NCBI RefSeq assembly: GCF_019968905.1 | Contig: NZ_CP079946.1 | Span: forward strand, 5,985,356-6,049,355 | DNA length: 64,000 bases | From: Corallococcus sp. EGB | GTDB taxonomy: Bacteria > Myxococcota > Myxococcia > Myxococcales > Myxococcaceae | Reading direction: 5' to 3' | Part shown: one piece after another, positions 6,973 to 47,108 of the stretch | How the letters are laid out: each line of letters opens with the position of its first letter | Numbering within the stretch: the stretch's first letter is position 1 | Notes under the pieces: model-generated | Seen by the model: only the letters and a program-made list of their open reading frames with translations | The model's database searches: none | What the model was told of the DNA's origin: nothing | Position numbers and translations under genes: made by a program

Positions 6973-6988
6973 GACTGACCTGCGCCGG

Positions 6989-8349: not shown

Positions 8350-8463
8350 CGCAGAGCGCCGCACAGGGCGTGCGAATCGTTGGCACTTCACGCTTTGCGT
8401 CCCAGGTGCACCTGGGTACAAGTTCTTCAGCGGTCCCACCCCTAGCCCGAGAGGTACTTCCCG

Positions 8464-9414
8464 ATGAGCTCGACCTCATCCACCGTGCTGCGCGCCGAAC
8501 ACATCTGGCTCGATGGGAAGCTGATGAAATGGGACGAGGGCAACGTGCACGTGATGACGCACGCCCTCCACTACGGCCTGGGCGTCTTCGAGGGCATCCG
8601 CGCCTACAAGACCCATGACGGCCGGCTCGCCGTCTTCCGGCTGCGCGAGCACATCCGCCGCATGATGGATTCAGCGCACATCATCATGCTGAAGATGCCC
8701 TACACCGAGGATGAGCTGGTGGAGGCCACGCTGGAGCTCTTGCGCACGCAGAAGGCGCAGTTCGCCAACGGCGCGTACCTGCGCCCGGTCGCCTTCATGG
8801 GCGACGGCGCCATGGGCCTGGGCGCGGTGAACCCCACCCGCGTGGGCATCACCGCCTGGGACTGGGGCGCGTACCTGGGTGACAAGGGCTTGAAGGAAGG
8901 CATCCGCGCCAAGGTCAGCTCGTTCACGCGCAACCACGTGAACGTGAACATGGTGCGCGGGAAGATCACCGGCCAGTACGTGAACTCCATCCTCGCCAAG
9001 CGCGAGGCGGTGCTCGCCGGCTACGACGAGGCCATCCTCCTGGACATCAGCGGCTTCGTCGCGGAGGCCTCCGGGGAGAACATCTTCCTCGTGAACAAGA
9101 AGGGCATCATCAAGACGCCGCCCCTCTCGTCCCCCGTCCTGGACGGCATCACCCGCGACACGGTGCTGCGGCTGCTGCGCGACGCCGGCCACACCACCAT
9201 CGAGGAGGTCACCGTCACCCGTGACGCCCTCTACATCTGCAACGAGGTCTTCTTCACCGGCACCGCCGCGGAGATTACCCCCGTGCGCGAGGTGGACAAC
9301 CGCCAGATTGGCGACGGCAAGCCCGGCCCCATCACCCGGTACATCCAGGACATGTACTTCCGCGTCGTGCGAGGCCAGGAGGCCCGCTATGCGGACTGGC
9401 TGACCTACGTCTGA
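8464..9414 (+). CDS. ilvE: Branched-chain amino acid aminotransferase.
   Basis: HIWLDGKLMKWDEGNVHVMTHALHYGLGVFEGIRAY and the overall class IV aminotransferase pattern. Confidence 0.9.
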   Translation: MSSTSSTVLRAEHIWLDGKLMKWDEGNVHVMTHALHYGLGVFEGIRAYKTHDGRLAVFRLREHIRRMMDSAHIIMLKMPYTEDELVEATLELLRTQKAQFANGAYLRPVAFMGDGAMGLGAVNPTRVGITAWDWGAYLGDKGLKEGIRAKVSSFTRNHVNVNMVRGKITGQYVNSILAKREAVLAGYDEAILLDISGFVAEASGENIFLVNKKGIIKTPPLSSPVLDGITRDTVLRLLRDAGHTTIEEVTVTRDALYICNEVFFTGTAAEITPVREVDNRQIGDGKPGPITRYIQDMYFRVVRGQEARYADWLTYV

Positions 9415-9474
9415 CGACAGTCCCTGGGACGCGAAGCCCCGGCGGCCGGGGGAATCGGGTAGAACCCGTACCCG

Positions 9475-10812
9475 ATGCCTCCCGCCGGCTACGCCTACGA
9501 AGACAATCCCTTCAAGCTGGAGAACCCGTCCATCCTCGACATCGCTCCGGGGGAGCCGAAGTCGCTGGAGGACACGGGACTGAGGATGGGTCTGTTGTCG
9601 GACCTGGGCCTCAAGTTCCTCTACTACGCCGGCACCGGCACGGGCGTGGCCATCGCGGAGAGCATGTGCCTGCCCTGGTCCGGCGTGGTGGAGCACGTGG
9701 TGGACTTCCTCGCCGCGGAGAAGCTCGTGGACCTGCGCGGCGGCAAGGGCTTTGGCCGCGCGTCCGTGGAGTTCGCCCTCACGGAGAAGGGCCGCGAGTA
9801 CGCCCGCGACGCCCTCACCCGCTCCACCTACGTGGGCCCCGCCCCCGTCCCCATCGAGCAGTACAACGCCCTCATCAGCAGCCAGACGGAGGAGACGCCC
9901 GTCGTGGGCCAGGAGGACCTGGTCGCCGCCCTGAGCCACCTCACCGTCTCCGCGGAGCTGATGGACAAGCTGGGCCCGGCCGTGAACTCCGGCCGCTCCC
10001 TCTTCCTCTATGGCCCGCCGGGCAACGGCAAGACGAGCCTGGCGGAGGCCATCTCCAACATGTTCGGCGGCGAGGTCTTCGTCCCGCACTGCCTGGAGAT
10101 CGACAACCAGATCATCAAGGTCTTCGACCGCATCATCCACACGCCCGTGTCGCTGGAGATGGACCGCGACGCCAGCGGCCGCCGGCAGACCTTCGAGATG
10201 GACAAGCGCTGGGCGCTCTGCCGGCGCCCCGCGGTGGTGGTGGGCGGCGAGCTGACGCTGGAGACGCTGGACCTCATCTACTCGGAGAGCACCCGCTTCT
10301 ACGAGGCGCCGTTCCAGGTGAAGGCCAACGGCGGCATGCTCCTCATCGACGACTTCGGCCGCCAGAAGGTCCACCCCACGGACCTGCTCAACCGGTGGAT
10401 CGTCCCCCTGGAGAAGCGGGTGGACTTCCTCACCCTGCACACCGGCAAGAAGTTCGAGATTCCCTTTGATCAGCTCCTCGTCTTCTCCACCAACCTGGAC
10501 CCCAAGGAGCTGGTGGACGAGGCGTTCCTGCGCCGCATCAAGTACAAGATAGAGGTCGGCAACCCGGACGAGGAGTCCTACCGGGAGATCTTCCGCCGGG
10601 TGTGTGAGGCGGCGGGCATCCCCTACGTGGACCAGGCCATCACCTACCTGGTGGAGCACTACTACAAGCCGCGCAGCATGGAGATGCGCTCCTGTCACCC
10701 GCGCGACCTGGTTTCACTCATCCGGGACGCGGCCCGATACCGGCAAATCCCGCCAGCCCTTTCAAAAGACCTCCTCGATCAGGCCTGTGAGGTGTTCCTG
10801 GTGAATCTGTAG
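9475..10812 (+). CDS. AAA+ ATPase with an N-terminal winged-helix-like domain; the Walker motifs resemble the DnaC/IstB clade.
   Basis: Walker A GPPGNGKTSLAEAI, Walker B MLLIDDFGRQKV, and sensor/Arg-finger region VFSTNLDPKELVDEAFLRR. Confidence 0.75.
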   Translation: MPPAGYAYEDNPFKLENPSILDIAPGEPKSLEDTGLRMGLLSDLGLKFLYYAGTGTGVAIAESMCLPWSGVVEHVVDFLAAEKLVDLRGGKGFGRASVEFALTEKGREYARDALTRSTYVGPAPVPIEQYNALISSQTEETPVVGQEDLVAALSHLTVSAELMDKLGPAVNSGRSLFLYGPPGNGKTSLAEAISNMFGGEVFVPHCLEIDNQIIKVFDRIIHTPVSLEMDRDASGRRQTFEMDKRWALCRRPAVVVGGELTLETLDLIYSESTRFYEAPFQVKANGGMLLIDDFGRQKVHPTDLLNRWIVPLEKRVDFLTLHTGKKFEIPFDQLLVFSTNLDPKELVDEAFLRRIKYKIEVGNPDEESYREIFRRVCEAAGIPYVDQAITYLVEHYYKPRSMEMRSCHPRDLVSLIRDAARYRQIPPALSKDLLDQACEVFLVNL

Positions 10813-10823
10813 TCGGGTTTTAT

Positions 10824-11771
10824 TTGTTCCAACCGCGCGGAATTTCTAGAATCCACGTGCCGTTGTACCCCCCGGCGCAGTCTCCGGGATCAGCGCCCGG
10901 GGCGGGCCGGGGCGACAAGGAGCCGCAGTCCGTGAAGGAACGCTACCAGGACATCGACGAGAAGAACGAGCAGCTGCGCGAGTACCTCGAGATCTACAAG
11001 GACAAGCAGCCCGCGCGTGAGTTCCTCGACCGTTTCGAGATGTCGTGGATCTACCACGACGCCGCGCTCGAAGGCGTCGTGTACACGCACCAGGAGCTGA
11101 TGGCGGCGCTCTTCCCCGAGCGCACGGCGGCGGAAGCCTCCATGATCCCGGTGGTGCTGGAGATCCGCAACCACAAGGCGGTGGCGGACTTCATCCGCGA
11201 GGAGGCCGCGGGCGCGAAGAAGCAGTCCGCGCTCACGCTCACCACCATCAAGCGGATGCACGACCTCTTCCTGGGCAACACGCCGGAGGCCCTGGCGGAG
11301 CGCGCCCGCATGGAGCGCCGGGAGCGCACGGAGAAGGAGCTGGCCAAGGAGCGCGACCGCGCGGGGCTGCGCAAGGACATGCCCCTGCACCGCACCTACT
11401 TCCACGACATCACCCAGCCGGCGAAGATCCAGGCCCGGCTGGAGAAGCTCGTGGACCACACGGCCAGCGCGGAGTTCCGCGAGTTCCACCCCATCAAGCA
11501 GGCGGCGGTGGTGCAGCACGAGTTCCTGCAGATCTTCCCCTTCACCGAGCACAGCGGGAAGGTGGGGCGCATGTGCAGCAACCTCATCCTGCTGCGCAAC
11601 GGCTACATGCCCGCGGTCATCCACTCCATCGACCGGCAGCGCTACTACGAGTCCTTCCGCGCGCCCGTGGCCACGTTCCGCACGGTGCTGATGGACGCGA
11701 TGGAGAACTCGCTGGACAACGGCGTGAAGTACTTCCGCGACCTCGGCCGCAAGTACAAGACCGTCGAGTAG
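10824..11771 (+). CDS. Fic/Fido-fold protein with a degenerate, probably catalytically inactive core motif.
   Basis: The Fic fold signature HPIKQAAVVQHEFLQIFPFTEHSGKVGRMCSNLILLRNGYMPAVI is present, but the motif is FPFTEHSGKVGR instead of HPFx[DE]GNGRxxR, so the catalytic His is replaced by Phe. Confidence 0.55.
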   Translation: MFQPRGISRIHVPLYPPAQSPGSAPGAGRGDKEPQSVKERYQDIDEKNEQLREYLEIYKDKQPAREFLDRFEMSWIYHDAALEGVVYTHQELMAALFPERTAAEASMIPVVLEIRNHKAVADFIREEAAGAKKQSALTLTTIKRMHDLFLGNTPEALAERARMERRERTEKELAKERDRAGLRKDMPLHRTYFHDITQPAKIQARLEKLVDHTASAEFREFHPIKQAAVVQHEFLQIFPFTEHSGKVGRMCSNLILLRNGYMPAVIHSIDRQRYYESFRAPVATFRTVLMDAMENSLDNGVKYFRDLGRKYKTVE

Positions 11772-31842: not shown

Positions 31843-35000
<3,158 letters not shown>

Positions 35001-35001
<1 letters not shown>

Positions 35002-35564
35002 TGCGCCGCCCCACCTCCATCACGTCCCCCTCGGAGCTCGAAGGACGCTCCGAGGGGAAGGACGAGGCCTCCGACGCGAAGGCCGCGATGGATCGCCTGC
35101 TCCAGGAAGGGGACCAGTCCACGCCGGACTCGCGCCGCTTCATCGGACTCATCCGGGAGCTGGCCCACTTCCGCTCCCTGAGGGATCCACTGGCCAGTCT
35201 CTGCGACGACATGCGGCTCACCCCGACGCAGGTGCACGCGTTGGGGTGGCTGGGTATGGACGGTCCCATCCAGGTCGGGGTGCTGGCCCAGCGCATCGGC
35301 ATCACCAAGAAGACCATCACCGGGGTGGTGGACCGCCTGGAGGACATGGGCATGGTGGAGCGCGGCCGGGACACCGAGGACCGCCGCGCCGTCACCGCCC
35401 GGCTCACCGAGCGGGGCTGTGAGGTCTACCGCCTCATCCAGCTGATGACGGACGCAGGCATCCGCCGCCTGATGGGCCTGCTCTCCGAGGATGACCGCGA
35501 GGCGCTGTTCGGCATCATCGAGCGGATGCTCGCCCGCATGAAGGCGAGCGCCCCGCCGCGCTGA
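35001..35564 (+). CDS. MarR-family transcriptional regulator, translationally coupled (TGATG) to the RND permease.
   Basis: LTPTQVHALGWL...GITKKTITGVVDRLEDMGMVERGRDTEDRRAV winged helix-turn-helix. Confidence 0.85.
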
Positions 35565-35616
35565 CGAGGCACGGCAGGTGCGTGGAGGGGCGCGGGCTGC
35601 GACACTGCCTGCGCCC

Positions 35617-36726
35617 ATGCTCCCCTCCTTCGTGGCCCTGCTCGGGCTTGGCCTGAGCGCCGCCCCCCCGCCCTCCCCCGCTGTCCCTTCCGCGACTGCG
35701 CTGCTCCACGCGCAGTGCCGCACGCACGGGGCGGATCCCTCCCATCCCTGGGCGCTCGCGCACGGCATGGATCTGGACGGGAAGTCCTTCCGCGCGCGGG
35801 ATGGCCGCCCGGCCTCGGACGCCATCGTCGCGGGGTTCCTGCGCCGCGAGTCCCCCGACGCGGGAGGCGCGGCCCGCTACTTCTTCGAAGCCTTCACGCA
35901 GGACGGCACGCCCGTGGAGCCCCACCCGGCGCTCCAGGTGAAGACCTTCGTGCTCGCGGGCTACCCGCGCTCGCACGCGTTCCCCGCGGCGTGGGGCAAG
36001 GTGACGCTGCGGGAGCTGGTGGCATCGCTCCAGAGTGACTTCCGGCCCGAGCTCGCCACATCGCCGGATGGCGCGTGGGCGCTGGACGCGTTGTCGCACG
36101 TGCTGGAGCCCGGGGGCTCGTTCGTCAACGGCGCCGGGGAGACGGTGCGCATCGACGCGGTGATGGACACGGCGCTCGCCACGCTGGAGTCCGCGAACGC
36201 GGAGCTGATGCAGGGCATGAAGGCGGGCCTGCCGCAGGTGCCCAAGAACAAGCAGGGCATCTACGCGCACCCGTGTGGCGGGCTCCACTTCTTCCAGGCC
36301 GTCGCGGGCTGGGCGCGCTTCCCGTCCGTGCGCAAGGCATGGGGCGCGCGGCTGGACGCGCAGGTGGACGTGCTGGTGTACCGGCTGGGTTCGGAGTCGC
36401 GCCAGTACGAGGCCGCCCTCGCCGCCGCGCCCGCGTACCGCGTCCCGGTGCTGGTGCAGATGGTGAAGTTCTACGGCCACCTCCTGGAGGCGCTGGGTCG
36501 CTACCGGGATGAGACAGGCTGGAGGCCCACGCCCGCGCAGGCCCGCGCGGTGGCGGAGGCGAAGGCCGCGCTGGAGCACGCCACGCTCCGGCTGGAGGCC
36601 ACGGGCGCGTTCCGAGACACGGAGGCGCTGTCCCGGACGCAGCCCCAGCTCGCCCTGGACCTGGTGGGTGATGCGTGCCACGCGGCGCGCGGCTGGGATT
36701 CGTGGGCCTCCGCGCAGGGACGTTAG
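35617..36726 (+). CDS. Hypothetical secreted protein.
   Basis: Signal peptide MLPSFVALLGLGLSAA, balanced amino acid composition and high GC3. It is judged the real gene over the overlapping antisense ORF. Confidence 0.5.
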   Translation: MLPSFVALLGLGLSAAPPPSPAVPSATALLHAQCRTHGADPSHPWALAHGMDLDGKSFRARDGRPASDAIVAGFLRRESPDAGGAARYFFEAFTQDGTPVEPHPALQVKTFVLAGYPRSHAFPAAWGKVTLRELVASLQSDFRPELATSPDGAWALDALSHVLEPGGSFVNGAGETVRIDAVMDTALATLESANAELMQGMKAGLPQVPKNKQGIYAHPCGGLHFFQAVAGWARFPSVRKAWGARLDAQVDVLVYRLGSESRQYEAALAAAPAYRVPVLVQMVKFYGHLLEALGRYRDETGWRPTPAQARAVAEAKAALEHATLRLEATGAFRDTEALSRTQPQLALDLVGDACHAARGWDSWASAQGR

Positions 36727-38445
36727 CGGCGGGCTCTCAGCCGCTGGAGCACCGCGCGCCCGGACGCCATCCATCTGCGCCCCCCGCTGCCGCGCGACCA
36801 TCACCGAGCCCAGGAGCAGCCGCTGCGCGCGCAGCTGGAGCAGATCCGCGCGCAGCTCCATTGGCGTCACGGTGCGGATGCGGCCCTGTTCGTAGGACTC
36901 GGTGATGGCGCGGCGCTGGAGCTTGCCGCTGCTCGTCTTCTGGAGCTGGCCGTAGCGGATGAAGTGGACGTCCTGGGACGCGAGCTTCACGCCCACCCGC
37001 TCCAGCACCGACTGGCAGACCTGGCCGCGGCTTTCCTCCAGGCGCTCCAGCGCGGACGGGGCGTTCACCTCCGCCAGCACCACGAGGCGGCCCTTCACCT
37101 GGATGACGGCGGTGCGGCCCGGGCGGATGAAGGGCAGCCGCTCGACGGCCTGTTCGAAGTCCGCGGAGAAGAAGCTCTGACCGTTCAGCTTGATGCGGTC
37201 GTTGATCCGCCCGGTGATGAAGAGCTCGCCCTCCTGCTGAAAGCCCAGGTCCCCCGTGGCGTAGAAGCCGTCAGCGTCACGCAGGGGCCGGTCGTCCAGG
37301 AAGTACGACGGCGCAAGGCTGCCGCCGCGCAGCTCAATCTCGCCCAGCGCGCCCTCACCGCACACCCGCCCGTCCTCCGCGCGCAGCCGCACCTCGAACT
37401 CCGTGAGCGGCCGGCCCACGGAGATGGCGGGCTGGCCATTGGGCGCGGTGACGACGCGCACGGTCTTGTACGGCGGCGCGCTCGCGACGAGCAGCACCGT
37501 CTCCGCCATGCCGTAGCAGGGCATGAACACGTCGCGCCGCAGCCCGCACGGGGCCAGCAGGTCCAGGAACTGTTCCAGGTTGGGGATGTTGATGGGCTCG
37601 CTGCCCAGATAGATGCTTCGCACGCGCGACAGGTCGAGCCGCTTCAGGTCCTCCGCGCCCGCGGCCTTCAGCGACTTCAGCGCGTAGTCGATGGCGAAGT
37701 TGGGGATGACGGAGCCCATCACCCGCTCTTGGGAGATGAGCTCCAGCCAGCCCAGCGGATCCATCAGGAACGCGGCGGGCTGGGACAGGATCAGATCATT
37801 GCCCACCATGAGGCAGGTGAGCAGCCCGCCGATGAGCCCCATGTCATGGTACAGCGGCAGCCAGCTCGTCACCCGGTCCTCGGAGGTGCGCCCGTCGTGC
37901 CGGGTGATCATCCGCAGGTTCGCGGCCAGGTTCTCGTGCGTGATGGGCACGCCCTTGGGGAACGACGTGGACCCCGACGAGAACTGCACGAAGGCCAGCG
38001 CTCCGGGCGCCACCTCGCGCAGCTTCACGCCCGGACCCCTGGCACCATCCGGCGGCAGCGGCAACCGCTCCAGGGGCAGGTCCAGCCCGGCCAGGCTCGG
38101 TCCATCCAGCACGACCGTGGCGCCGTAGCGCTCGCGGATCCGCGCGAGGAAGTCCCGGTAGGGCCCCTTCGGAGTGCTCAGGATGTACGGCTTCACGGAC
38201 AGGGGCAAAGCACCCAATTCCATCAGCCCCAGGAAGGCGAAGATGACGGACGCGGAGGTCTCGAAGGGCAGCACCACGCGCGTGCCCGGCGCCACGCCGC
38301 GCGCGCGGAAGTGCTCCGCCGCGCCAGCGACTCGGGCGGAGAACTCACGGTAGGGCACGAACTCCGGCGGCCCGATGAAGTCCTCGTAGAGGAACAGGCC
38401 GCGCCGAGGATCCGCCGCCTCCAGCCGCTGGATGACATCGAGCAT
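36727..38445 (-). CDS. Fatty acyl-AMP ligase (FAAL). The 3' end is uncertain because the frame has no stop until 35515.
   Basis: FVQFSSGSTSFPKGVPITHENL, YGMAETVL, GDLGF and the C-terminal KTSSGKLQRRAI. The adenylation domain ends near 36870; further downstream the translation becomes Arg-rich shadow sequence. Confidence 0.7.
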
Positions 38446-38459
38446 GAGGAAGGGCTCCC

Positions 38460-38876
38460 CTACGCGCGCGACGCTTGAAGGAACTGCTGCAACGACGCGA
38501 GCTCGCGGGTCCTCGCGTCCAGGAAGGCCACGCTCACCAGCGCCTCCACGGCCGGGGGGCCGCCGCTCGCGAGGAACACCCGCTGACGGAAGCGAGCGCG
38601 GTAGTTCAGGCCGTCCGGCTCCAGCTCGTCCTCCGCGGGCGACTCCAGCGCGGTGTGCACCACCACCTCGCCCGGGGGAATCTCACGCCGGTAGTCCACC
38701 TCCGCGCGCGACACCACCGCGACCACCGCCCCGCGACGCGTCAGCCCCTGCTGCTCCAGCCAGGCCCACCGGCCCGCCTCCAGGTACTCCAACGCCGTCG
38801 CGTGGTTCACGTGGCCCAGCACGTCCAGGTCGTTCGGGCGCACGCGCAACGTGAGGGAGGACGCTTCGAAATGCAC
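38460..38876 (-). CDS. Hotdog-fold acyl-CoA/acyl-ACP thioesterase (4HBT/YbgC-like).
   Basis: RVRPNDLDVLGHVNHATALEYLEAGRWAWLEQ. Confidence 0.75.
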   Translation of the reverse strand: MHFEASSLTLRVRPNDLDVLGHVNHATALEYLEAGRWAWLEQQGLTRRGAVVAVVSRAEVDYRREIPPGEVVVHTALESPAEDELEPDGLNYRARFRQRVFLASGGPPAVEALVSVAFLDARTRELASLQQFLQASRA

Positions 38877-38915
38877 GAAAGGGACCTTCCCGCTGCCAGG
38901 GCCGCGGCAGCGACT

Positions 38916-39281
38916 TCAAGGTGAAGGAGCGCGCGTGACGAGGACCACCGTCGAAACGAACCCGCCGCTGTGGGACAGCGAGACGGCGACCTGCCAGCCC
39001 TCGCGCTCCAGGTGCTCGGCGAGCACGCCGTGGAACCGGAAGCGCGGCGCGTGCCGCGCGTCGTGAACGAGCTCGGCGTCGGTCCAGTACCAGCCTTCGA
39101 TGGCGGGCAGCGCCTTGAAGAGCGCCTCCTTGGCGCTGAAGCCCGCCGCCAGGCTCTGCTCCGGAGAGACGGATGCCGCGAAGCGCTCCAGCTCCGCGGC
39201 CGTGAAGAACACGTCCGGCTCGCGCAGGGCCCGCACGGCCTCCAGCTCCGGGATGGCCTGGAGGTCGTGGCCCAACCCCAT
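38916..39281 (-). CDS. acpS: Holo-ACP synthase-type 4'-phosphopantetheinyl transferase.
   Basis: MGLGHDLQAIPELE...FSAKEALFKALP...WQVAVSLSHSGGFVSTVVLV. The start forms an ATGA overlap with the upstream gene. Confidence 0.7.
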   Translation of the reverse strand: MGLGHDLQAIPELEAVRALREPDVFFTAAELERFAASVSPEQSLAAGFSAKEALFKALPAIEGWYWTDAELVHDARHAPRFRFHGVLAEHLEREGWQVAVSLSHSGGFVSTVVLVTRAPSP

Positions 39282-40246
39282 CAGCACCCGACGAGTTCCA
39301 TCCAGGTGTCCTCCACCGCCTGGCGCGAATCCACGGCGATGCCGGTGATGCGCTTGAGCGCGTGGAACATCAGCTGCTCCTTCTTGCGCAGCGCCTCCGG
39401 GGCGTACTGGCCTTCGCGGTACTCCAGCCGGTCCCACCAGTTGACGTGCGTCTCACGCTGCTCCAACCGCTCGCGCTTGCTGCCCAACAGCTCACCGCCG
39501 CTGCGCAGGAACAGGTGCCCCACCGCGAACGCCTCCTTCGCGTGGTAGGCGCCCGTGTCCACCAGCGCCTTGGCGAAGGAGATGAAGTACGTCATGTGCT
39601 GCACTTCATCCGCGGCCACCAGCCGGAAGAGCTCCTTCAGGCCCGGGTCCTGCGTCATCCGCGCGCACTCGCCGTAGTTCACCGCCGCGAGGATCTCCGA
39701 GAACGTCACGATGGTGAGCGTCCGCAGCATGTCGTCGTCGGGGAACACCTTGCGGAACTCGATGAAGGTCGTGTCGCTGATGGGCTCCAGCTTCAGCACC
39801 GACGACAGGCGGTTGAACACCGTCTCGTGGTGCGCCTCCTCCTCGTTCCAATAGCGGCTCCACGTCCCGCACGCCTGCATGATGACGGCGACCGTGGGGT
39901 TCACCGCCTGCCACCGGCGGCACTCCGCGTCCGTCTGGCGCTCCAGGCGGTCCGCGCTCGGCTTCGTGGTGATTTCGGAGCGCCCCGCGTTCCACACGAT
40001 GTTCCGGTCGGACTCGCTCAGCCGCGCGAAGTCCACCCGCGCCAGCTGCTCCATCGCGCTCCAGCGCCGCGACTCGTGCAGCCGCTGCTGCTCCCACGAC
40101 AGGTCCACCAGCGACATGCGCCGCCGGGTGATGGCGTCGTAGAGCTCCGTCATGATGTACGGCCGCCCTTCCGTCTCCCCGCCCTCCGACGGAGGAAGGA
40201 TGAGCGTCTGATCCGCGTCCTCGGGCATGCGAACCTGGAAGCTCAC
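39281..40246 (-). CDS. Ferritin-like di-iron carboxylate protein (acyl-ACP desaturase-like or AurF-like oxygenase).
   Basis: Ligand pattern E(102/108)...EEAHH(136-140)...E183...DEVQH(213-217), with spacings comparable to soluble acyl-ACP desaturases. Confidence 0.6.
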   Translation of the reverse strand: MSFQVRMPEDADQTLILPPSEGGETEGRPYIMTELYDAITRRRMSLVDLSWEQQRLHESRRWSAMEQLARVDFARLSESDRNIVWNAGRSEITTKPSADRLERQTDAECRRWQAVNPTVAVIMQACGTWSRYWNEEEAHHETVFNRLSSVLKLEPISDTTFIEFRKVFPDDDMLRTLTIVTFSEILAAVNYGECARMTQDPGLKELFRLVAADEVQHMTYFISFAKALVDTGAYHAKEAFAVGHLFLRSGGELLGSKRERLEQRETHVNWWDRLEYREGQYAPEALRKKEQLMFHALKRITGIAVDSRQAVEDTWMELVGC

Positions 40247-40539
40247 GCGAGGCTCCCTTCCGGCTGGACCACCTGGTTCAGGAACATCGTGAGCACCTTC
40301 GACATGGGCGTATCCAATGACAGCACGGGCAACCTCACGCGCAACCCATGGTCCTTGCGCAGGCCGTTCGCGGTCCGCGCGAACGCCTCCATCAGGTCTA
40401 CGCTATTGGTCATGTGCTCGGAGCGGGCCAAGACGGCCCCCAGGGTCAGGTCTTCCGCGAACAACTCACCCTCCGACATGCCTACGTTTTCAGCGAACTT
40501 CCGTCGGATATAGGACTCGAACTCCTGCGCGTCGGGCAC
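40243..40539 (-). CDS. Standalone acyl carrier protein (phosphopantetheine-binding).
   Basis: TNSVDLMEAFARTANGL resembles the DSL phosphopantetheine site. GTG start with an AGGAAGG ribosome-binding site, and an ATGA overlap with the di-iron gene. Confidence 0.55.
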   Translation of the reverse strand: MPDAQEFESYIRRKFAENVGMSEGELFAEDLTLGAVLARSEHMTNSVDLMEAFARTANGLRKDHGLRVRLPVLSLDTPMSKVLTMFLNQVVQPEGSLA

Positions 40540-40687
40540 GGGGGACCTTCCTTCGCAAGGCTTGAAAGTCGATTTCCCTGTCTGAAAACAGGAAAGATCT
40601 AACTGTGTCTCCACGGCTGTCAATCAGCAACGGGTCACTTTGGATCCGCGGGCGAACGTGACCTGCTGCGTTCGCTCCACGCGTCAT

Positions 40688-41866
40688 TCATGCAATCAGG
40701 CGCGAGATTTCCTCAGCCGTGAAACCCGCGTCTTCCAGGATGACGCGCGAGTCCTGTCCCAGCGTGGGCGGTGGACGCAGCGCGACGTCGCCCATGCGCA
40801 GGGGCGTGAGCAGGTGCGTAACGCGAATGCCACGCCGCGCGTCCTCCGCCTCCACGAAGAGGCCGCGCGCGCGCAGCTGTGGATCCGCCAGGACCTCGTC
40901 GCCCTCGGACACCGGCTCCACGCAGAACTCCGGGCCGCAGAGCTGCTCGCGCCAGTGCGCCAGCGGCTGTTCCGCGAAGATGCGGGTGAGCTCCGCCTTC
41001 ACGCGAGAGCAGGCCTCTCCGCCCGAGTACGCGTCATCCAGCAGCTCCGGACGGCCCAGCTTCGCGCAGAGCGCGCCGAAGAACTTGGGCTCCAGCGCCC
41101 CCACGGCGAGCCAGCGGTCGTCCGCGGTGCGGTACAGCCCGTAGCTCGGGTATCCGCCGTTGAGCGCCTCCGTCCCGCGCTGGAGCGGTGAGCCCTGCGG
41201 CCCCATGAAGAGGCGCGAGGCCAGGTGCAGGTGGAGGAACGCCAGCGCGCCGTCCGTCATGGACACGTCCACGAAGCGGCCCACGCCGGTGCGCTCACGC
41301 TCGTGCAGCGCGGCGAGGATGCCCACCAGCGCGAAGAGGCTGCCTCCGCCGATGTCCGCCACCTGGACGCCCGGGAACGCGGGCGCGCCGCCGGCCTCTC
41401 CGCCGTAGCCCAACAGCCCCGCGCGGGCCACGTAGTTGAGGTCGTGCCCTGCCTTGAGCCGGTCCGGCCCCGTCTGGCCGTAGCCGGAGATGGCGCAGTA
41501 GATGAGCCGCGGGTTCTTCTGGCGCAGCGCCGCCTCGCCCAGGCCCAGCTTGTCCATCACGCCGGGGCGGAAGCTCTCCACCAGCACGTCGTAGCGCGTC
41601 ACCAGGCGCAGGAGCGCGTCACGCCCTTCCGGCGACTTGAGGTTCAGCGTGAGCGAGCGCTTGTTGCGGTGCAGCCCGTAGTAGAGCGCGCCCTCCCCGT
41701 CCCGGTGCGGCGGCATGTGGCGGGTGGCGTCCCCCACGTCCGGGTCCTCCACGGTGTCCACGGTGGCGCCCAGGTCCGCCAGGACCAGCGTCGCGTACGG
41801 GCCGGGCAACAGGCGCGACAGGTCCAACACCCGCAGGCCGGCGAGAGGGGAAGACGGCTCGGACAT
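40688..41866 (-). CDS. Family III CoA-transferase (CaiB/BaiF/MCR-like).
   Basis: LAGLRVLDLSRLLPGPYATLVLADLGA. Confidence 0.85.
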   Translation of the reverse strand: MSEPSSPLAGLRVLDLSRLLPGPYATLVLADLGATVDTVEDPDVGDATRHMPPHRDGEGALYYGLHRNKRSLTLNLKSPEGRDALLRLVTRYDVLVESFRPGVMDKLGLGEAALRQKNPRLIYCAISGYGQTGPDRLKAGHDLNYVARAGLLGYGGEAGGAPAFPGVQVADIGGGSLFALVGILAALHERERTGVGRFVDVSMTDGALAFLHLHLASRLFMGPQGSPLQRGTEALNGGYPSYGLYRTADDRWLAVGALEPKFFGALCAKLGRPELLDDAYSGGEACSRVKAELTRIFAEQPLAHWREQLCGPEFCVEPVSEGDEVLADPQLRARGLFVEAEDARRGIRVTHLLTPLRMGDVALRPPPTLGQDSRVILEDAGFTAEEISRLIA

Positions 41867-41956: not shown

Positions 41957-42286
41957 TCAGCTCAGCAGCTTCGCCAGCTTCATGGCGAGGCCCATGTCCA
42001 TCGGCTTGAACTTGAGCTTGCCCGACATGGCGGCCATCTGCGGGTTCAGCTTGCCCTCGCGGATCTTCACGAAGTCGTCGTTGCTGACGGAGACCGTCAT
42101 CTTCGACGCGCCGTTGAGCCCCTCGGACACCCAGCCGTCCGGCTTGGTGGTGTCCAGCGTCCACTTGCCGCCACCGTCGCCGGAGACGTCGAAGTGGATG
42201 ATGGCGTTGATCTCCTTCGCCAGCTCTGGCTTCGCCTGCAGCTTCGCCGGAATCTGCGTCTCGATGATGTCCTTCGCGGTCGACAT
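41957..42286 (-). CDS. SCP2 sterol-carrier domain protein.
   Basis: MSTAKDIIETQIPAKLQAKPELAKEINAIIHFDVSG...GKLKFKPMDMGLAMKLAKLL. Confidence 0.7.
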   Translation of the reverse strand: MSTAKDIIETQIPAKLQAKPELAKEINAIIHFDVSGDGGGKWTLDTTKPDGWVSEGLNGASKMTVSVSNDDFVKIREGKLNPQMAAMSGKLKFKPMDMGLAMKLAKLLS

Positions 42287-42385
42287 GACTCGCTCCTTTT
42301 TGAGCAGCATTGATTGATGAATCAAGCCCGCGTGGACCGTAGTGGCGCACCACTACCGGGTCAAGCGCGGCACCGCGCGGCGTCC

Positions 42386-44499: not shown

Positions 44500-46371
44500 T
44501 CAGTCTCCGCCCTTGCCGCTCGCGTACATGGCGTCGATGAGCATGGCGTACTTCTGGCTGGCCACCTTGCGCTTCACCTTGAGCGTCGGCGTGAGCTCGC
44601 CGGACTCCTGCGTGAAGTCCGCCTTCATCACCTGGAACTTCTTGATGGTGGAGTACGGAGGAATCTCCGCGTTCACCTTCTTGAAGATCTCCTCGATGGC
44701 CGCGCGGATCTCCGGCCGCTGCGAGTTCTGCTCGTAGCTGCCCACCGCGATGCCCTTTTCCTCCAGCAGCTTGCGCGCGGGCTCCTCGGAGACCGTGACG
44801 AGCGCGACGAGGTACGGCTGCTTGTCACCGACCACCATCGCCTGGCTGATGAGCGGGAAGGTCTTGAGCGTGTTCTCGATGTTCTGCGGCGCCACGTTCT
44901 TGCCGCCCGCGGTGACGATGATGTCCTTCTTGCGGTCGGTGATGCGCAGGTAGTTGTCGGAGTCCACCTCGCCGATGTCGCCGGTGTGGAACCAGCCGTC
45001 CGGATCCAGCACCTCCGCGGTGGCAGCGGGGTTCTTGTAGTAGCCCTTCATCACGCAGGGGCCACGCACCAGGATCTCTCCGTCCGCGGCGATCTTGATC
45101 TCCGTGCCCGGCACCGGCGGGCCCACGGTGCCGATCTTGATCTTCTCCACCCGGTTGGCGTTGCACGGGGCGCTCGTCTCCGTGAGGCCGTAGCCCTCCA
45201 GCACCTTCAGGTCGAGCAGGTCGAAGAAGTAGGCGATCTTCCGCGACAGCGGCGCGCCGCCGGAGATGAAGATGCGCATGTTGCCGCCCAGCTTCTCATC
45301 CAGCGTCTTGCGCACCTTGGAGAACACCAGCCGCTTGGCCAAGCTGAACTGGAGCGAGCTGTACTCGCGGCCCTGGGCCTTGGCCTCGGCGTACTCGTCA
45401 AAGAGGCCGAAGGCCCACTTGAAGAGCTTGCCCTTCATGCCGGGCGCCGCCGAGCCGTTGGCCACGACGTTGTTGTAGACCTTCTCGAAGACGCGCGGCA
45501 CGGACGGCAGCACCGTGGGGCGCGTCTCCGCCAGGTTCGCCAGCAGCTTGTCCACCGACTCCGCGATGATGAGGCGGAAGCCCATGGACAGCCACGCGGC
45601 CTTCACCACCTGCGCGAACACGTGCGCCAGGGGCAGGAAGAGCATGACGGAGTCGTCCGGCTTCATCATGCCCATGGCCTGGGTGGCCTTCGCTTCATAG
45701 GCCCAGTTGCCGTGGGTGAGGATGACGCCCTTGGGGTCGCCCGTGGTGCCGGAGGTGTAGATGAGCAGGTTGGTGTCGTCCGTCTTCACCTGCGCCACGC
45801 GCTCGGCGAACGCGGCCTCGGAGGCGAACGGCTGGCCCTTGCCGGAGGCCACCACCTCCGCGAGCGTCAGCTCCTTGCCGCCGTCGGCGACGGGGCCCTC
45901 GAAGACGACGATCTTCTCCAGCTTGGGGATGTCCGCGAGCTTGGAGCGCACGCGCGACAGGCGGCCCGCCTGCTTGGCGTCCTTCTCGTCGTTGTCGACG
46001 AGCAGCAGCCGCGTCTCCGAGTGGTTCAGGATGTAGCGGCACTCATCCGGCGTGTTGGAGCCGTAGATGGGCACCGTGATGGCCTGGGCCGCGCTGATGG
46101 CCAGGTCCGCGATGATCCACTGGAGGCTGGTGTTGGCGAAGATGGCCACCCGGTCCCCGGGCTGGATGCCCTGGGCGATGAGGCCCGCCGCCAGCGCCTT
46201 CACGTCCTCCAGCACCTGCGCGTACGTGACGTCCTGCCAGCGCCCGTCCTTCTTGTGGGTGACGCCTACCTTGGAGGCGTTCTGGGCCCGCTGAACGAGC
46301 AACTGGACGAGGTTCTGCTCCTGCGTCCCGCCCGCCGCGGGAGCCGTCGTGACCTGACTCTCTGCCCTCAC
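44500..46371 (-). CDS. Long-chain fatty acid-CoA ligase (AMP-dependent synthetase).
   Basis: IYTSGTTGDPKGV, GYGLTE, HTGDIG; the GTG start is GTGA-coupled to the upstream gene. Confidence 0.85.
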   Translation of the reverse strand: MRAESQVTTAPAAGGTQEQNLVQLLVQRAQNASKVGVTHKKDGRWQDVTYAQVLEDVKALAAGLIAQGIQPGDRVAIFANTSLQWIIADLAISAAQAITVPIYGSNTPDECRYILNHSETRLLLVDNDEKDAKQAGRLSRVRSKLADIPKLEKIVVFEGPVADGGKELTLAEVVASGKGQPFASEAAFAERVAQVKTDDTNLLIYTSGTTGDPKGVILTHGNWAYEAKATQAMGMMKPDDSVMLFLPLAHVFAQVVKAAWLSMGFRLIIAESVDKLLANLAETRPTVLPSVPRVFEKVYNNVVANGSAAPGMKGKLFKWAFGLFDEYAEAKAQGREYSSLQFSLAKRLVFSKVRKTLDEKLGGNMRIFISGGAPLSRKIAYFFDLLDLKVLEGYGLTETSAPCNANRVEKIKIGTVGPPVPGTEIKIAADGEILVRGPCVMKGYYKNPAATAEVLDPDGWFHTGDIGEVDSDNYLRITDRKKDIIVTAGGKNVAPQNIENTLKTFPLISQAMVVGDKQPYLVALVTVSEEPARKLLEEKGIAVGSYEQNSQRPEIRAAIEEIFKKVNAEIPPYSTIKKFQVMKADFTQESGELTPTLKVKRKVASQKYAMLIDAMYASGKGGD

Positions 46372-47108
46372 TTGAGCTCCTCCTGGATGTCGGCATCCAC
46401 CTTCTTGGCCCACTGCTGCACGCGCTGCCCCTCCGCGGGGTTGTAAGCGGTGCTTCCCTGCTTGACCTTCTCGATGGCGGCGCTCGCCTCCTTCGCCTTG
46501 CCGTCCTTCAGGAGCGTCTCGGCGAGGTAGTAGTGCGCGCGCAGCGACTGCGGAAACTTGGCGATGGCCTTCTGGTAGAACTCGGCGGACTTGCCGAGGT
46601 CGCGCTTGGGCCAGGGCAGCTCATAGAAATATCGCCCCTTCACCAGCCAGGGGCCGCCGAACTCGTACGTGGGGTCGATCTTCAGCGCGGTGTCCAGGCG
46701 CTCGTTGAACTTGCCCTCCAGGCCGTCACCCAGGGCCTTCATGATGCCCACGGCCTGCGAGTAGGAGCCGATGCCGCAGGCGGCGAAGTAGTAGCCCTCC
46801 ACGCGCGCGGGCTGCAGCCTGGCCGCCTTGTCGCCCGCCTCCCAGGTCTGCTTGCCCAGGACCATCTTGAGCTTCTTCTCCGTGGCGCCGTCCGCCTGCC
46901 ACTGGAGCATGCGCGCCTTGCGCCACGCGAGGTCGAAGTCGTCCGGCGCGGCCTTCAGCGCCTCGGAGAGGCCCGCGTCCAACGCCTTGAGGGAGTCCGC
47001 GTCATTGCGTTTGGCGTACAACGCGTCGAGTTGGTCGAGCAGCGCGGGATCCGCAGCGTGTGCTGGGATGGCCCAAAGCACCCAAAGGGCAAGCAATTTC
47101 AAGCGCAT
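46368..47108 (-). CDS. Secreted TPR-like hypothetical protein.
   Basis: Signal peptide MRLKLLALWVLWAIPAHA and helical repeat character. Confidence 0.55.
   Translation of the reverse strand: MRLKLLALWVLWAIPAHAADPALLDQLDALYAKRNDADSLKALDAGLSEALKAAPDDFDLAWRKARMLQWQADGATEKKLKMVLGKQTWEAGDKAARLQPARVEGYYFAACGIGSYSQAVGIMKALGDGLEGKFNERLDTALKIDPTYEFGGPWLVKGRYFYELPWPKRDLGKSAEFYQKAIAKFPQSLRAHYYLAETLLKDGKAKEASAAIEKVKQGSTAYNPAEGQRVQQWAKKVDADIQEELK

What the first reader, a model, noticed from the sequence alone, without database searches (positions are those of the whole stretch)
36700..41866. Compact acyl-tailoring cassette: standalone ACP, soluble di-iron protein, AcpS-type PPTase, hotdog thioesterase and FAAL, flanked by a CoA-transferase
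Five minus-strand genes are chained by ATGA/GTGA start-stop overlaps and by a 16-nt coding overlap between the thioesterase stop and the FAAL ATG. This pattern indicates a single translationally coupled operon. In order they are an acyl carrier protein (ACP, 40243-40539), a ferritin-like di-iron protein with an E...EEAHH...E...DEVQH ligand set (39281-40246), a phosphopantetheinyl transferase (PPTase, 38916-39281), a thioesterase (38460-38876) and a fatty acyl-AMP ligase (FAAL, to 38445). There is no polyketide synthase, non-ribosomal peptide synthetase or ketosynthase. The inferred logic is that the FAAL loads a free fatty acid onto the dedicated ACP, which its own PPTase activates. The soluble di-iron enzyme then desaturates or hydroxylates the acyl-ACP, and the thioesterase releases the product. 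This parallels the JamABC alkyne/olefin cassette, except that the membrane desaturase is replaced by a soluble acyl-ACP-desaturase-like di-iron protein. To my knowledge that combination is not a described pathway. A CoA-transferase and an SCP2 lipid-carrier gene lie adjacent.
Basis: partly seen in the sequence, partly recalled or inferred. Interest (0 to 1): 0.72.

Follow-up and report, generated by a model that had tools for sequence, protein, structure and literature searches.

The report
Orphan fatty-acid tailoring cassette with di-iron enzyme
A compact operon in Corallococcus sp. EGB encodes a fatty-acid-activating ligase, its own unusual carrier protein, the enzyme that primes that carrier, an uncharacterised di-iron oxygenase and a release enzyme; the same cassette recurs in about 70 species of several bacterial phyla, and I found no description of its product.

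Summary
The five minus-strand genes are real. Pfam, PDB and fold evidence support the carrier protein, di-iron protein, AcpS-type PPTase, hotdog thioesterase and FAAL-like ligase. The window is the Corallococcus sp. EGB chromosome.

- Only two junctions overlap (GTGA and TGATG). The thioesterase and ligase genes are separated by a 14-nt spacer, not a 16-nt overlap.
- The ligase ORF has no stop near 36700. An extra G in a G6 run (36780-36785) shifts the frame relative to four Corallococcus relatives.

New findings:
- The cassette keeps its gene order in 70 genomes of Myxococcota, Actinomycetota, Cyanobacteria, Acidobacteriota and Proteobacteria. No other gene family is shared across phyla.
- Most copies carry a sixth gene, an alpha/beta-hydrolase, which is cleanly absent here.
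- The di-iron protein belongs to a tight, isolated family whose only detectable relatives are soluble acyl-ACP desaturases. It lacks the CylC halogenase motifs.
- The carrier protein matches no Pfam or NCBIfam model and no solved carrier protein by sequence, but folds as an ACP.
- The ligase has a truncated FAAL-specific insertion.

Best reading: thiotemplated oxidation of a fatty acyl-ACP, as in polyyne and CylABC cassettes. The reaction and the product are unknown. This is a new variant of a known kind.

The parts
40540..40687 (-). 148-nt non-coding leader between the CoA-transferase stop and the carrier-protein start. It is the likely 5' boundary of the cassette transcript. A GAAGGAAGG ribosome-binding motif lies just before the GTG at 40539.
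   Evidence: Sequence read directly. No Rfam family and no sigma-70-type promoter match. The promoter is not identified.
40243..40539 (-). Stand-alone divergent acyl carrier protein, 98 aa, WP_223634110.1. Candidate phosphopantetheine site Ser46 in N-S-[VIL]-D-L-M-E.
   Evidence: No Pfam, NCBIfam or PDB sequence match. AF2 pLDDT 85.8. Foldseek top hits are nearly all carrier proteins, including amxACP 7auf, AcpM and DltC, with TM 0.5-0.68. Asn45-Ser46 is invariant and sits at the N-terminus of helix 46-64.
39281..40246 (-). Soluble ferritin-like di-iron oxygenase or desaturase-like protein, 321 aa, WP_223634107.1. Start overlaps the ACP stop (GTGA).
   Evidence: Partial PF03405 match (29.3 bits, profile 94-221 of 325) and Rubrerythrin. 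Invariant in 69 homologues: E91, E108, E135-E137, H140, E184, D213, E214, H217. A family-only profile hits only DesA2 (E 0.006). A broadened profile that includes bridging distant relatives hits DesA2 at 1.4e-10 and plant acyl-ACP desaturases at about 1e-6. No transmembrane segment: maximum KD19 is 1.13.
38916..39281 (-). AcpS-type 4'-phosphopantetheinyl transferase, 121 aa. ATG overlaps the di-iron stop by 1 nt (TGATG).
   Evidence: PF01648, 36.7 bits. NCBIfam holo-ACP synthase models match, all below their cut-offs. GxD and KEAxxKA motifs are visible in the translation. Junction read.
38460..38876 (-). YbgC/FadM-type hotdog (4HBT) thioesterase, 138 aa.
   Evidence: PF13279, 59.5 bits, and PF03061. 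PDB hits 2fuj and 1njk (YbaW/FadM). N-terminal RVRPNDLDVLGHVN motif with the candidate catalytic Asp.
38446..38462 (-). Thioesterase stop plus the 14-nt spacer before the ligase ATG. This is also the junction where the 959-bp alpha/beta-hydrolase segment present in other Corallococcus is missing.
   Evidence: Sequence read directly. Window 38700-38463 aligns to L058 11540-11777 and window 38461-38251 aligns to L058 12737-12947, so L058 11778-12736 has no counterpart.
36723..38445 (-). FAAL-like acyl-adenylate ligase. 573 aa after frame correction; as sequenced the ORF runs on to 35515.
   Evidence: PF00501 165 bits and PF23024. The best solved relatives are FAALs: 7r7e at 1.7e-58, E. coli FAAL 3pbk at 1.1e-55, FadD32/23/28; CoA ligases score about 1e-20. 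The insertion after YGMAE is 28 aa, against about 45 in FAALs and 18 in the window's ordinary acyl-CoA synthetase.
36780..36785 (-). G6 homopolymer with one extra G relative to four Corallococcus relatives. It causes a frameshift at codon 554, in the lineage-specific C-terminal tail of the ligase.
   Evidence: DNA alignment. Coordinates and corrected translation. GC3 frame analysis shows that real coding below about 36750 belongs to the convergent plus-strand gene 35578-36726.

Best explanation
This is a self-contained, horizontally mobile cassette for thiotemplated tailoring of a fatty acid.

Inferred sequence of events:
1. The AcpS-type PPTase converts the cassette's own divergent carrier protein to the holo form at Ser46.
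2. The FAAL-like ligase adenylates a free fatty acid and transfers it to that holo-ACP rather than into the CoA pool.
3. The soluble ferritin-like di-iron enzyme is translationally coupled to the ACP. Using O2 and host ferredoxin-type electrons, it oxidises the ACP-tethered acyl chain. Desaturation or hydroxylation is most likely, because its only detectable relatives are soluble acyl-ACP desaturases.
4. The hotdog thioesterase hydrolyses the product from the ACP. In the fuller six-gene versions an alpha/beta-hydrolase assists or replaces it.

Shown here: gene identities, predicted folds, the conserved ligand set, conserved gene order across phyla, and the absence of other conserved partners.

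Inferred: every catalytic step, the substrate and the product.
For: - Domain assignments.
- ACP fold with invariant Ser46 at the start of helix II.
- Di-iron ligands E91/E108, E137-x-x-H140, E184 and E214-x-x-H217 are invariant in 69 homologues.
- The nearest relatives of the di-iron protein are soluble acyl-ACP desaturases.
- The di-iron protein has no transmembrane segment.
- Stop/start overlaps link ACP to the di-iron gene and the di-iron gene to the PPTase.
- Of 60 well-flanked loci from at least five phyla, 58 have the ACP, 57 the thioesterase, 57 the ligase, 45 the PPTase and 37 the alpha/beta-hydrolase, in the same order.
- Only these six families are shared across phyla.
- A cyanobacterial copy sits between MurD-like and GlyS housekeeping genes.
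- Precedent for the logic: polyyne cassettes with FAAL, ACP, desaturases and thioesterase were reconstituted experimentally (PMC9828172). CylC and NocO are soluble di-iron enzymes acting on FAAL-loaded acyl-ACP (PMC12101540).
Against: - No experiment exists for any member that I could find.
- The desaturase link is weak and partial. It covers only the two central metal-binding helices and scores 29 bits. The family-only profile gives E 0.006 to DesA2.
- The di-iron structure model is poor, with pLDDT 57, so the substrate cavity could not be examined.
- The ligase lacks most of the FAAL-specific insertion and falls below the NCBIfam FAAL cut-offs. CoA ligation, or a substrate other than a fatty acid, is not excluded.
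- No ferredoxin or reductase gene is in the cassette.
- Ferritin-like oxygenases on acyl thioesters can also halogenate or cleave C-C bonds.
- In this strain the ligase frameshift and the missing hydrolase raise the possibility of an impaired copy.
Confidence: 0.5

Rival explanations
1. The carrier logic is the same but the chemistry differs. The di-iron enzyme performs oxidative C-C cleavage or chain shortening of the acyl thioester, as BioE or ADO do, yielding a dicarboxylate or a shortened acid or hydrocarbon rather than an unsaturated or hydroxy fatty acid.
For: BioE, an ADO-like ferritin-like oxygenase, cleaves C14-C18 acyl-ACP or acyl-CoA to pimeloyl thioester (PMC12704756). ADO and R2lox appear among the profile and fold hits. 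The ligand spacing of 29 and 30 residues resembles that of ADO, as I recall it.
Against: No biotin genes or BioL accompany the cassette in any phylum. Acyl-ACP desaturases score better than ADO (1e-10 to 1e-6 against 6e-4). No acyl-ACP reductase is present for an ADO-type route.
Confidence: 0.12
2. The di-iron enzyme is a CylC-type dimetal halogenase that chlorinates the ACP-bound fatty acyl chain.
For: The partnership is the same as CylA/CylB/CylC and NocO: FAAL, ACP and a soluble di-iron enzyme (PMC12101540). Cyanobacterial members of the cassette exist.
Against: The defining QExxH and HxxDExxH motifs (3 His / 3 Glu, PMC12101540) are absent. This family has E-E-E-A-H-H and V-A-A-D-E-V-Q-H, a 2-His / 4-carboxylate set of the desaturase and hydroxylase type. 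Its profile relatives are desaturases, with only faint AurF matches.
Confidence: 0.03
3. Logic of the isonitrile-lipopeptide type. The hotdog protein is not merely hydrolytic; it adds a nucleophile to an activated acyl-ACP or otherwise transforms it. The iron enzyme then acts on the released small acid, installing a new functional group.
For: The component list parallels Rv0097-Rv0100 and ScoB-E, from my own knowledge: a FAAL without the classical insertion (FadD10), a small ACP, a hotdog 'thioesterase' and a non-haem iron oxidase. The truncated insertion in this ligase fits that parallel.
Against: FadD10 and FcoT are not among the PDB hits of the ligase or the thioesterase. The oxidase class differs: ferritin-like di-iron here, Fe/2-oxoglutarate there. 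The ACP and di-iron genes are the tightly coupled pair, which argues for action on the tethered substrate.
Confidence: 0.1
4. The copy in Corallococcus sp. EGB is a decaying or non-functional remnant. The alpha/beta-hydrolase is deleted and the ligase is frameshifted.
For: A 959-bp segment present in all other Corallococcus loci is missing. An extra G at 36780-36785 removes the ligase stop, giving a 976-aa ORF that reads antisense through the neighbouring gene. The di-iron and ACP proteins are only 72-77% identical to other Corallococcus, while flanking genes are 89-96% identical.
Against: The five-gene layout without the hydrolase occurs in 10 of 60 loci in several lineages. The di-iron protein deviates at only 2 of 78 family-conserved columns, both conservatively. 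The frameshift lies after the catalytic domains, in a Myxococcaceae-specific tail that Streptomyces homologues lack. It sits in a homopolymer, where sequencing errors are common.
Confidence: 0.15
5. The di-iron protein is an ordinary housekeeping acyl-ACP desaturase for membrane lipids, as the NCBI annotation 'acyl-ACP desaturase' implies.
For: The NCBI name and the PF03405 hit above the gathering score.
Against: - It has a dedicated non-canonical ACP, PPTase, ligase and thioesterase.
- Its distribution across phyla is patchy and mobile.
- Only a partial PF03405 match is found.
- The family is isolated from true desaturases in a search of 1.84 billion representatives.
- 69 of the 95 listed homologues that carry a source name are called only 'hypothetical protein' or 'ferritin-like domain-containing protein'.
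Confidence: 0.05

Closest known systems
Bacterial polyyne/alkyne cassettes (CayA-F and PgnD-I; JamABC; TtuABC)
   Same: Stand-alone thiotemplated fatty-acid tailoring without PKS or NRPS. A FAAL loads a designated ACP, O2-dependent di-iron desaturases act on the tethered chain, and a thioesterase releases the product (PMC9828172, PMC11837247). Some also carry a P450, as the actinobacterial copies here do.
   Different: Those desaturases are membrane-bound histidine-box enzymes, usually three of them, helped by rubredoxin. Here there is a single soluble ferritin-like protein with no transmembrane segment, no redox partner gene, a hotdog rather than an alpha/beta thioesterase in the window, and a dedicated PPTase.
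CylA/CylB/CylC and NocO dimetal-carboxylate halogenase systems
   Same: A FAAL, an ACP and a soluble ferritin-like di-iron enzyme acting on unactivated carbons of an ACP-tethered fatty acyl chain (PMC12101540, PMC8406957).
   Different: The CylC family carries QExxH and HxxDExxH motifs (3 His / 3 Glu), resembles AurF, is almost confined to cyanobacterial PKS/NRPS clusters, and feeds assembly lines. This family has the 2-His / 4-carboxylate set, its relatives are desaturases, and it has no assembly line and its own thioesterase.
Soluble acyl-ACP desaturases (plant delta-9, delta-6 and delta-4; Mycobacterium DesA1/DesA2; PF03405)
   Same: They are the only family detectably related by sequence. 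They share the E...ExxH...E...ExxH ligand helices, including WxxEExxH and DExxH, and an acyl-ACP substrate.
   Different: Only the central part aligns, about 115-130 residues. Identity is below 20%. The family forms an isolated island in sequence space. It works with a private non-canonical ACP loaded by a ligase rather than with the ACP of fatty-acid synthesis.
BioE (ferritin-like oxygenase that makes pimeloyl thioester) and cyanobacterial ADO
   Same: Ferritin-like di-iron oxygenases acting on fatty-acyl derivatives. BioE acts directly on acyl-ACP or acyl-CoA (PMC12704756). ADO appears among the weaker profile and fold hits.
   Different: There is no bio-operon or BioL context, no acyl-ACP reductase, and the similarity is weaker than to desaturases.
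Isonitrile lipopeptide core (Rv0097-Rv0100; ScoB-E)
   Same: A ligase of FAAL type without the classical insertion, a small ACP, a hotdog 'thioesterase' and an iron oxidase, arranged as a compact core (from my own knowledge).
   Different: The oxidase is Fe/2-oxoglutarate-dependent and an NRPS follows. No sequence relationship was detected here.

Membership tests
Soluble acyl-ACP desaturase (PF03405) | Ferritin-like four-helix core with 2-His / 4-carboxylate ligands (E...ExxH...E...ExxH) | tested here: met
   E91/E108, E137-x-x-H140, E184 and E214-x-x-H217 are invariant in 69 homologues. They align to WTAEEHLH and DEVRH of DesA2.
Soluble acyl-ACP desaturase (PF03405) | Full-length match to the family profile | tested here: not met
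   Only profile positions 94-221 of 325 match, at 29.3 bits against a 22.7 cut-off. There is no NCBIfam hit. Most homologues carry no precomputed Pfam domain. The family is isolated in the representatives search.
Soluble acyl-ACP desaturase (PF03405) | O2- and ferredoxin-dependent desaturation of acyl-ACP | not testable with these tools
   Requires an enzyme assay.
CylC-type dimetal-carboxylate halogenase | Conserved QExxH and HxxDExxH motifs, 3 His / 3 Glu (PMC12101540) | tested here: not met
   This family has N-E-E-E-A-H-H-E and V-A-A-D-E-V-Q-H. There is no Gln before the first ExxH and no His three residues before the DE.
CylC-type dimetal-carboxylate halogenase | Encoded with a FAAL and an ACP that present the substrate | tested here: met
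Fatty acyl-AMP ligase (FAAL) | Closer to characterised FAALs than to acyl-CoA ligases | tested here: met
   PDB hits: 7r7e 1.7e-58, EcFAAL 3pbk 1.1e-55, Legionella FAAL 3kxw, FadD32/23/28. FACS-type enzymes score about 1e-20. A DIP2-like C-terminal domain is present.
Fatty acyl-AMP ligase (FAAL) | FAAL-specific insertion of about 20 residues after the YGxAE motif | tested here: not met
   The query is about 17 residues shorter than 7r7e and 3pbk exactly there. It has 28 residues between YGMAE and GxP in 45 cassette ligases, against about 45 in FAALs and 18 in the window's FACS. The placement of the insertion rests on my knowledge of Arora 2009 and on PMC8460268.
Fatty acyl-AMP ligase (FAAL) | Curated NCBIfam FAAL model cut-off | tested here: not met
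   PRK09192 scores 262.7 bits against a cut-off of 600.
Fatty acyl-AMP ligase (FAAL) | Transfers acyl-AMP to holo-ACP and rejects CoA | not testable with these tools
   Requires an assay.
Acyl carrier protein (PF00550 PP-binding) | Sequence match to carrier-protein profiles | tested here: not met
   No Pfam or NCBIfam hit. A family profile against PDB finds no carrier protein. hhalign against E. coli AcpP gives probability 0.3%.
Acyl carrier protein (PF00550 PP-binding) | Small helical carrier fold | tested here: met
   AF2 pLDDT 85.8. Most of the top Foldseek PDB hits, including all 14 best, are ACP, PCP or DltC chains or complexes that contain AcpM, with TM up to 0.68.
Acyl carrier protein (PF00550 PP-binding) | Conserved Ser at the N-terminus of helix II | tested here: met
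   Asn45-Ser46 is invariant. The helix begins at residue 46.
Acyl carrier protein (PF00550 PP-binding) | Phosphopantetheinylation | not testable with these tools
   Requires mass spectrometry of the protein.
AcpS-type PPTase (PF01648) | Single ACPS domain of about 120 aa, with a profile match above the cut-off | tested here: met
   PF01648 scores 36.7 bits against 25. TIGR00556 scores 45.0 against 45.35, which is borderline. GxD and KEAxxKA motifs are seen in the translation.
4HBT/YbgC-type hotdog thioesterase (PF13279) | Profile match and the N-terminal acidic catalytic motif | tested here: met
   PF13279 scores 59.5 bits. It aligns to 2fuj and to 1njk (FadM). The NDLDVLGHVN motif is present. 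Catalysis was not tested.
Polyyne/alkyne thiotemplated cassettes | Membrane histidine-box desaturases related to JamB, plus rubredoxin | tested here: not met
   No such gene lies in or next to the cassette. The oxidase here is soluble.
BioE pimeloyl pathway | Linked to bioFDBA and the BioL regulator (PMC12704756) | tested here: not met
   No family beyond the six cassette genes is shared across phyla in 70 loci. The flanks that were Pfam-scanned, in one cyanobacterial locus, one Chromatiales locus and the window, hold no biotin genes. Direct sequence comparison with BioE was not possible.

The most novel reading that the evidence does not exclude
The di-iron protein founds a new functional subfamily of ferritin-like oxygenases. 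It would perform a transformation not yet known for this fold on a privately tethered fatty acyl chain, giving a previously unrecognised small lipid (a signal, antibiotic or surfactant precursor). That lipid would be shared, through horizontal transfer of a four-to-six-gene module, by soil actinomycetes, myxobacteria, filamentous cyanobacteria and others. The partner proteins would also be new subtypes: a carrier protein that no Pfam or NCBIfam model and no solved-structure sequence search recognises, and a FAAL-like ligase with a truncated insertion.
Probability: 0.25. Interest if true: 0.8.

Novelty: new variant of a known kind. Interest (0 to 1): 0.6.

Why it matters
Selective oxidation of unactivated carbons in fatty chains is hard chemistry, and each newly characterised di-iron family (desaturases, ADO, CylC, BioE) has brought a new reaction. 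This is a compact, portable cassette of four to six genes with its own carrier protein and priming enzyme, so it should be easy to express in another host. It is conserved at 55-70% identity between phyla and present in at least 70 species, yet I found no assigned product. It also shows that standard annotation misses a whole carrier-protein family. The ACP gets no Pfam or NCBIfam hit, NCBI calls it 'hypothetical protein', and the oxygenase is labelled as an ordinary acyl-ACP desaturase.

Tried and rejected
1. **CylC-type halogenase.** Rejected on motifs (PMC12101540).
2. **BioE-like pimelate supply.** No biotin context was found. BioE itself could not be aligned because no sequence was available.
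3. **Acidomycin cluster.** This was a lead from a literature hit. That cluster has an NRPS, a P450 and an AMP-binding protein but no di-iron protein, so it is unrelated.
4. **Sequence-level proof that the small ORF is an ACP.** It failed. Fold prediction was needed.
5. **AF2 model of the di-iron protein.** Built from a 13-sequence alignment, it was poor (pLDDT 57). Its Foldseek hits (E > 0.1) serve only as weak corroboration, and no cavity analysis was attempted.
7. **The look-up of encoding contigs for the EGB ACP** found nothing. Organism identity came from the listing of cluster members.
8. **Rfam and promoter/terminator scans** of 35.0-43.0 kb gave nothing useful.
9. **Six literature searches** found no description of this cassette. 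The library lacks most subscription-journal papers, so a description may still exist.
10. **CoA-transferase and SCP2 as part of the pathway.** Rejected as core, because they are conserved only within Myxococcaceae. A role like the PtmU4 thioacid CoA-transferase was considered but not tested.

Full report
**Source and setting**

The window has about 70% G+C. It is the chromosome of Corallococcus sp. EGB. The di-iron protein is identical to WP_223634107.1, which NCBI names 'acyl-ACP desaturase'. The small upstream protein is identical to WP_223634110.1, 'hypothetical protein'. Both come from a 9,431,171-bp contig.

**Check of the observation**

All five minus-strand genes exist at the stated coordinates.

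| Gene | Coordinates | Evidence |
|---|---|---|
| Ligase | starts at 38445 | AMP-binding 165 bits plus a DIP2-like C-terminal domain |
| Thioesterase | 38460-38876 | 4HBT_2, 59.5 bits |
| PPTase | 38916-39281 | ACPS, 36.7 bits |
| Di-iron protein | 39281-40246 | FA_desaturase_2, 29.3 bits over profile positions 94-221 of 325, and Rubrerythrin |
| ACP-like | 40243-40539 | No Pfam or NCBIfam hit |
| CoA-transferase III | 40688-41866 | CoA_transf_3, 350.8 bits |
| SCP2 | 41957-42325 | SCP2, 66.2 bits |

- ACP/di-iron is a GTGA overlap.
- Di-iron/PPTase is a TGATG one-base overlap.
- The PPTase and thioesterase genes are separated by 39 nt.
- The thioesterase stop and the ligase start are separated by 14 nt that contain GGGAG. 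There is no 16-nt overlap.

A 148-nt non-coding stretch separates the CoA-transferase from the ACP gene.

The ligase reading frame has no stop until 35517-35515, which gives 976 aa. The GC3 frame plot shows that true coding below about 36750 belongs to a convergent plus-strand gene, 35578-36726. Alignment with four Corallococcus relatives shows one extra G in a G6 run at 36780-36785. Removing it gives a 573-aa protein ending at TAA 36725-36723, with a tail that matches the relatives. The shift lies after both catalytic domains, in a tail that Streptomyces homologues lack. It may be a homopolymer sequencing error.

**The carrier protein**

Sequence methods do not recognise it. There is no Pfam or NCBIfam hit, a family profile finds no carrier protein in the PDB, and hhalign against E. 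coli AcpP gives nothing.

Other evidence supports a carrier protein:
- Sixty-odd homologues share an invariant N-S-[VIL]-D-L-M-E motif.
- An AlphaFold2 model built from 28 sequences is confident (pLDDT 85.8). It places Ser46 at the N-terminus of the long second helix.
- Foldseek returns almost only carrier proteins at the top: the anammox ACP, AcpM and DltC, with TM up to 0.68.

I therefore accept it as a divergent acyl carrier protein. Phosphopantetheinylation remains untested.

**The di-iron protein**

It is soluble, with a maximum 19-residue hydropathy of 1.13. Homologues are unusually conserved: 62-75% identity between Myxococcota and Actinomycetota, and 76% mean column identity in a 13-sequence alignment.

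Invariant in 69 sequences are E91, E108, E135-E137, H140, E184, D213, E214 and H217. This is the classical 2-His / 4-carboxylate set. WNEEEAHH and ADEVQH align to WTAEEHLH and RDEVRH of DesA2.

A profile search of 1.84 billion representative proteins shows that the family is an island. Only about four full-length 50%-identity clusters were found. The next relatives are about 400-aa proteins at roughly E 1e-10, and then DesA2-like proteins at about 1e-6. A broadened profile that includes those bridging relatives ranks the solved structures as follows:
- DesA2, 1.4e-10
- plant delta-4, delta-6 and delta-9 acyl-ACP desaturases, 1e-7 to 1e-6
- R2lox, 1e-5
- ADO, 6e-4

My AF2 model of this protein is poor (pLDDT 57). 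Its fold hits are the same enzyme classes but with E > 0.1, so they count only as weak corroboration.

The CylC halogenase signature (QExxH and HxxDExxH; PMC12101540) is absent.

**The ligase, thioesterase and PPTase**

The ligase's best solved relatives are genuine FAALs: 7r7e at 1.7e-58, E. coli FAAL at 1.1e-55, then FadD32, FadD23 and FadD28. CoA ligases score about 1e-20.

The alignments show the query about 17 residues short in the segment after YGMAE, where the FAAL-specific insertion lies. Across 45 cassette ligases this segment is 28 residues, against about 45 in FAALs and 18 in the window's ordinary acyl-CoA synthetase at 44500-46413. It is therefore FAAL-like with a truncated insertion. 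PMC8460268 argues that the insertion is not the main determinant of CoA rejection, so loading onto the ACP remains the likely role but is unproven.

The thioesterase is a YbgC/FadM-type hotdog protein with the N-terminal acidic motif. The PPTase is a single-domain AcpS type.

**Conservation elsewhere**

A scan of one genome per species found 70 loci:
- Corallococcus, Citreicoccus, Hyalangium, Nannocystaceae and Sorangium
- Streptomyces, Kitasatospora, Frankia, Catellatospora, Saccharothrix and Solwaraspora
- Oscillatoria and Symploca
- a Pyrinomonadaceae, a Gallionellaceae and Thiohalocapsa

The order ACP, di-iron, PPTase, thioesterase, ligase is kept. Among the 60 loci with enough flank, gene presence is as follows:

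| Gene | Loci (of 60) |
|---|---|
| ACP | 58 |
| Thioesterase | 57 |
| Ligase | 57 |
| PPTase | 45 |
| Alpha/beta-hydrolase (between thioesterase and ligase) | 37 |

The sixth gene matches Hydrolase_4 and Abhydrolase_1 and has an AHSMAG nucleophile motif. Thirty-three loci have all six genes. Ten have the window's five-gene form.

Clustering all predicted proteins of the loci shows no other family shared across phyla. One cyanobacterial copy lies between MurD-like and GlyS genes. The CoA-transferase, SCP2, the 382-aa gene and MarR are conserved only in Myxococcaceae. I treat them as local synteny rather than as part of the module.

In the window the hydrolase is missing by a clean 959-bp difference located exactly at the thioesterase stop.

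**How it most likely works**

The anatomy has five features:
- a ligase of FAAL type
- a private carrier protein with its own priming enzyme
- an O2-activating di-iron protein translationally coupled to the carrier
- one or two hydrolases
- no condensing enzyme

This fits a thiotemplated tailoring line that takes a free fatty acid, oxidises it while it is tethered, and releases it. The logic has been reconstituted experimentally for bacterial polyynes, which use a FAAL, a designated ACP, three membrane desaturases and a thioesterase (PMC9828172). It is also used with a soluble di-iron enzyme in the CylA/B/C and NocO systems (PMC12101540).

Because the only detectable relatives are acyl-ACP desaturases, I consider desaturation or hydroxylation the most likely reaction. 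BioE shows that ferritin-like enzymes on acyl thioesters can also cleave chains (PMC12704756), so the chemistry is open. Every catalytic step is inferred.

**Novelty**

I found no paper describing this cassette or this di-iron family. The searchable library is incomplete, so a description may exist. The logic is known and the parts are new subtypes. I therefore rate it a new variant of a known kind and a good target for expression in another host, with interest 0.6.

Noticed in passing
window 36780-36785 (minus strand G6 run); ORF 35515-38445: One extra G relative to four Corallococcus relatives removes the ligase stop codon. The annotated-length ORF (976 aa) then reads antisense through the convergent gene 35578-36726. 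This is either a homopolymer assembly error or a real read-through tail.
   Followed up: yes
window 38460-38462, against L058 11778-12736: A 959-bp segment carrying an alpha/beta-hydrolase gene is present in every other Corallococcus locus and is cleanly absent from strain EGB. The same gene is present or absent patchily in all phyla (37 of 60 loci).
   Followed up: yes
window 39281-40539, against L001-L011 and L058: The ACP and di-iron proteins of strain EGB are only 68-77% and 72-76% identical to those of other Corallococcus. The flanking CoA-transferase (87-96%), the 382-aa protein (82-93%) and the ligase (81-90%) are much closer. The other Corallococcus di-iron proteins are 81-92% identical to each other. 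This suggests replacement of the ACP/di-iron pair by recombination or transfer.
   Followed up: partly
L014, L015 and L016 (Hyalangium and relatives), about 8087-10903: Two tandem ACP/di-iron gene pairs precede a single PPTase-thioesterase-hydrolase-ligase set. The first pair groups with the single pair of Myxococcaceae bacterium GXIMD 01537 (63-65% identity). This suggests two paralogous subtypes of the ACP/oxygenase pair.
   Followed up: partly
L071 (Streptomyces sp. LZ34) 1-9565, and clusters 5, 18, 23 and 24: In L071 the cassette is preceded by P450 and MFS transporter genes. Further upstream lies a divergent set: an AMP-binding enzyme, a ThiS-like protein, a 278-aa unknown, two acyl-CoA dehydrogenase-like proteins and a PP-binding protein. 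Subsets of the actinobacterial loci share upstream gene families: a ~544-aa family in 21 loci (identity not assigned), and ~586-, ~276- and ~88-aa families in 10-13 loci whose lengths match the AMP-binding, 278-aa and ThiS genes. This may be a larger cluster built around the cassette.
   Followed up: partly
L064 (Thiohalocapsa) 3472-9651; also L066 and L069: The ligase lies upstream of the ACP, a different gene order. In Thiohalocapsa the cassette sits next to a sulfotransferase, a PEMT/ICMT-like methyltransferase and an FAD-dependent oxidoreductase with weak halogenase-like matches. This hints at further decoration of the product.
   Followed up: no
window 35578-36726 (+): This convergent 382-aa gene has a signal-peptide-like N-terminus and no Pfam or NCBIfam hit. 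It is conserved next to the cassette in Myxococcaceae at 63-93% identity. Its function is unknown.
   Followed up: no
window 31843-35564 (+) and 44500-46413 (-): An AcrB-type RND transporter gene overlaps by one base the start of a MarR-family regulator gene (FabT-like weak match). It lies just downstream of the cassette region. An ordinary long-chain acyl-CoA synthetase lies 3 kb upstream. Both are lipid-related neighbours that might be functionally linked.
   Followed up: no
window 40688-41866 (-): The family III CoA-transferase falls below every NCBIfam equivalog cut-off (best 203 bits against 750). It keeps its position directly upstream of the ACP gene in several Myxococcaceae genera. A role in the pathway, for example CoA-thioester handling of the released acid, cannot be excluded.
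   Followed up: partly
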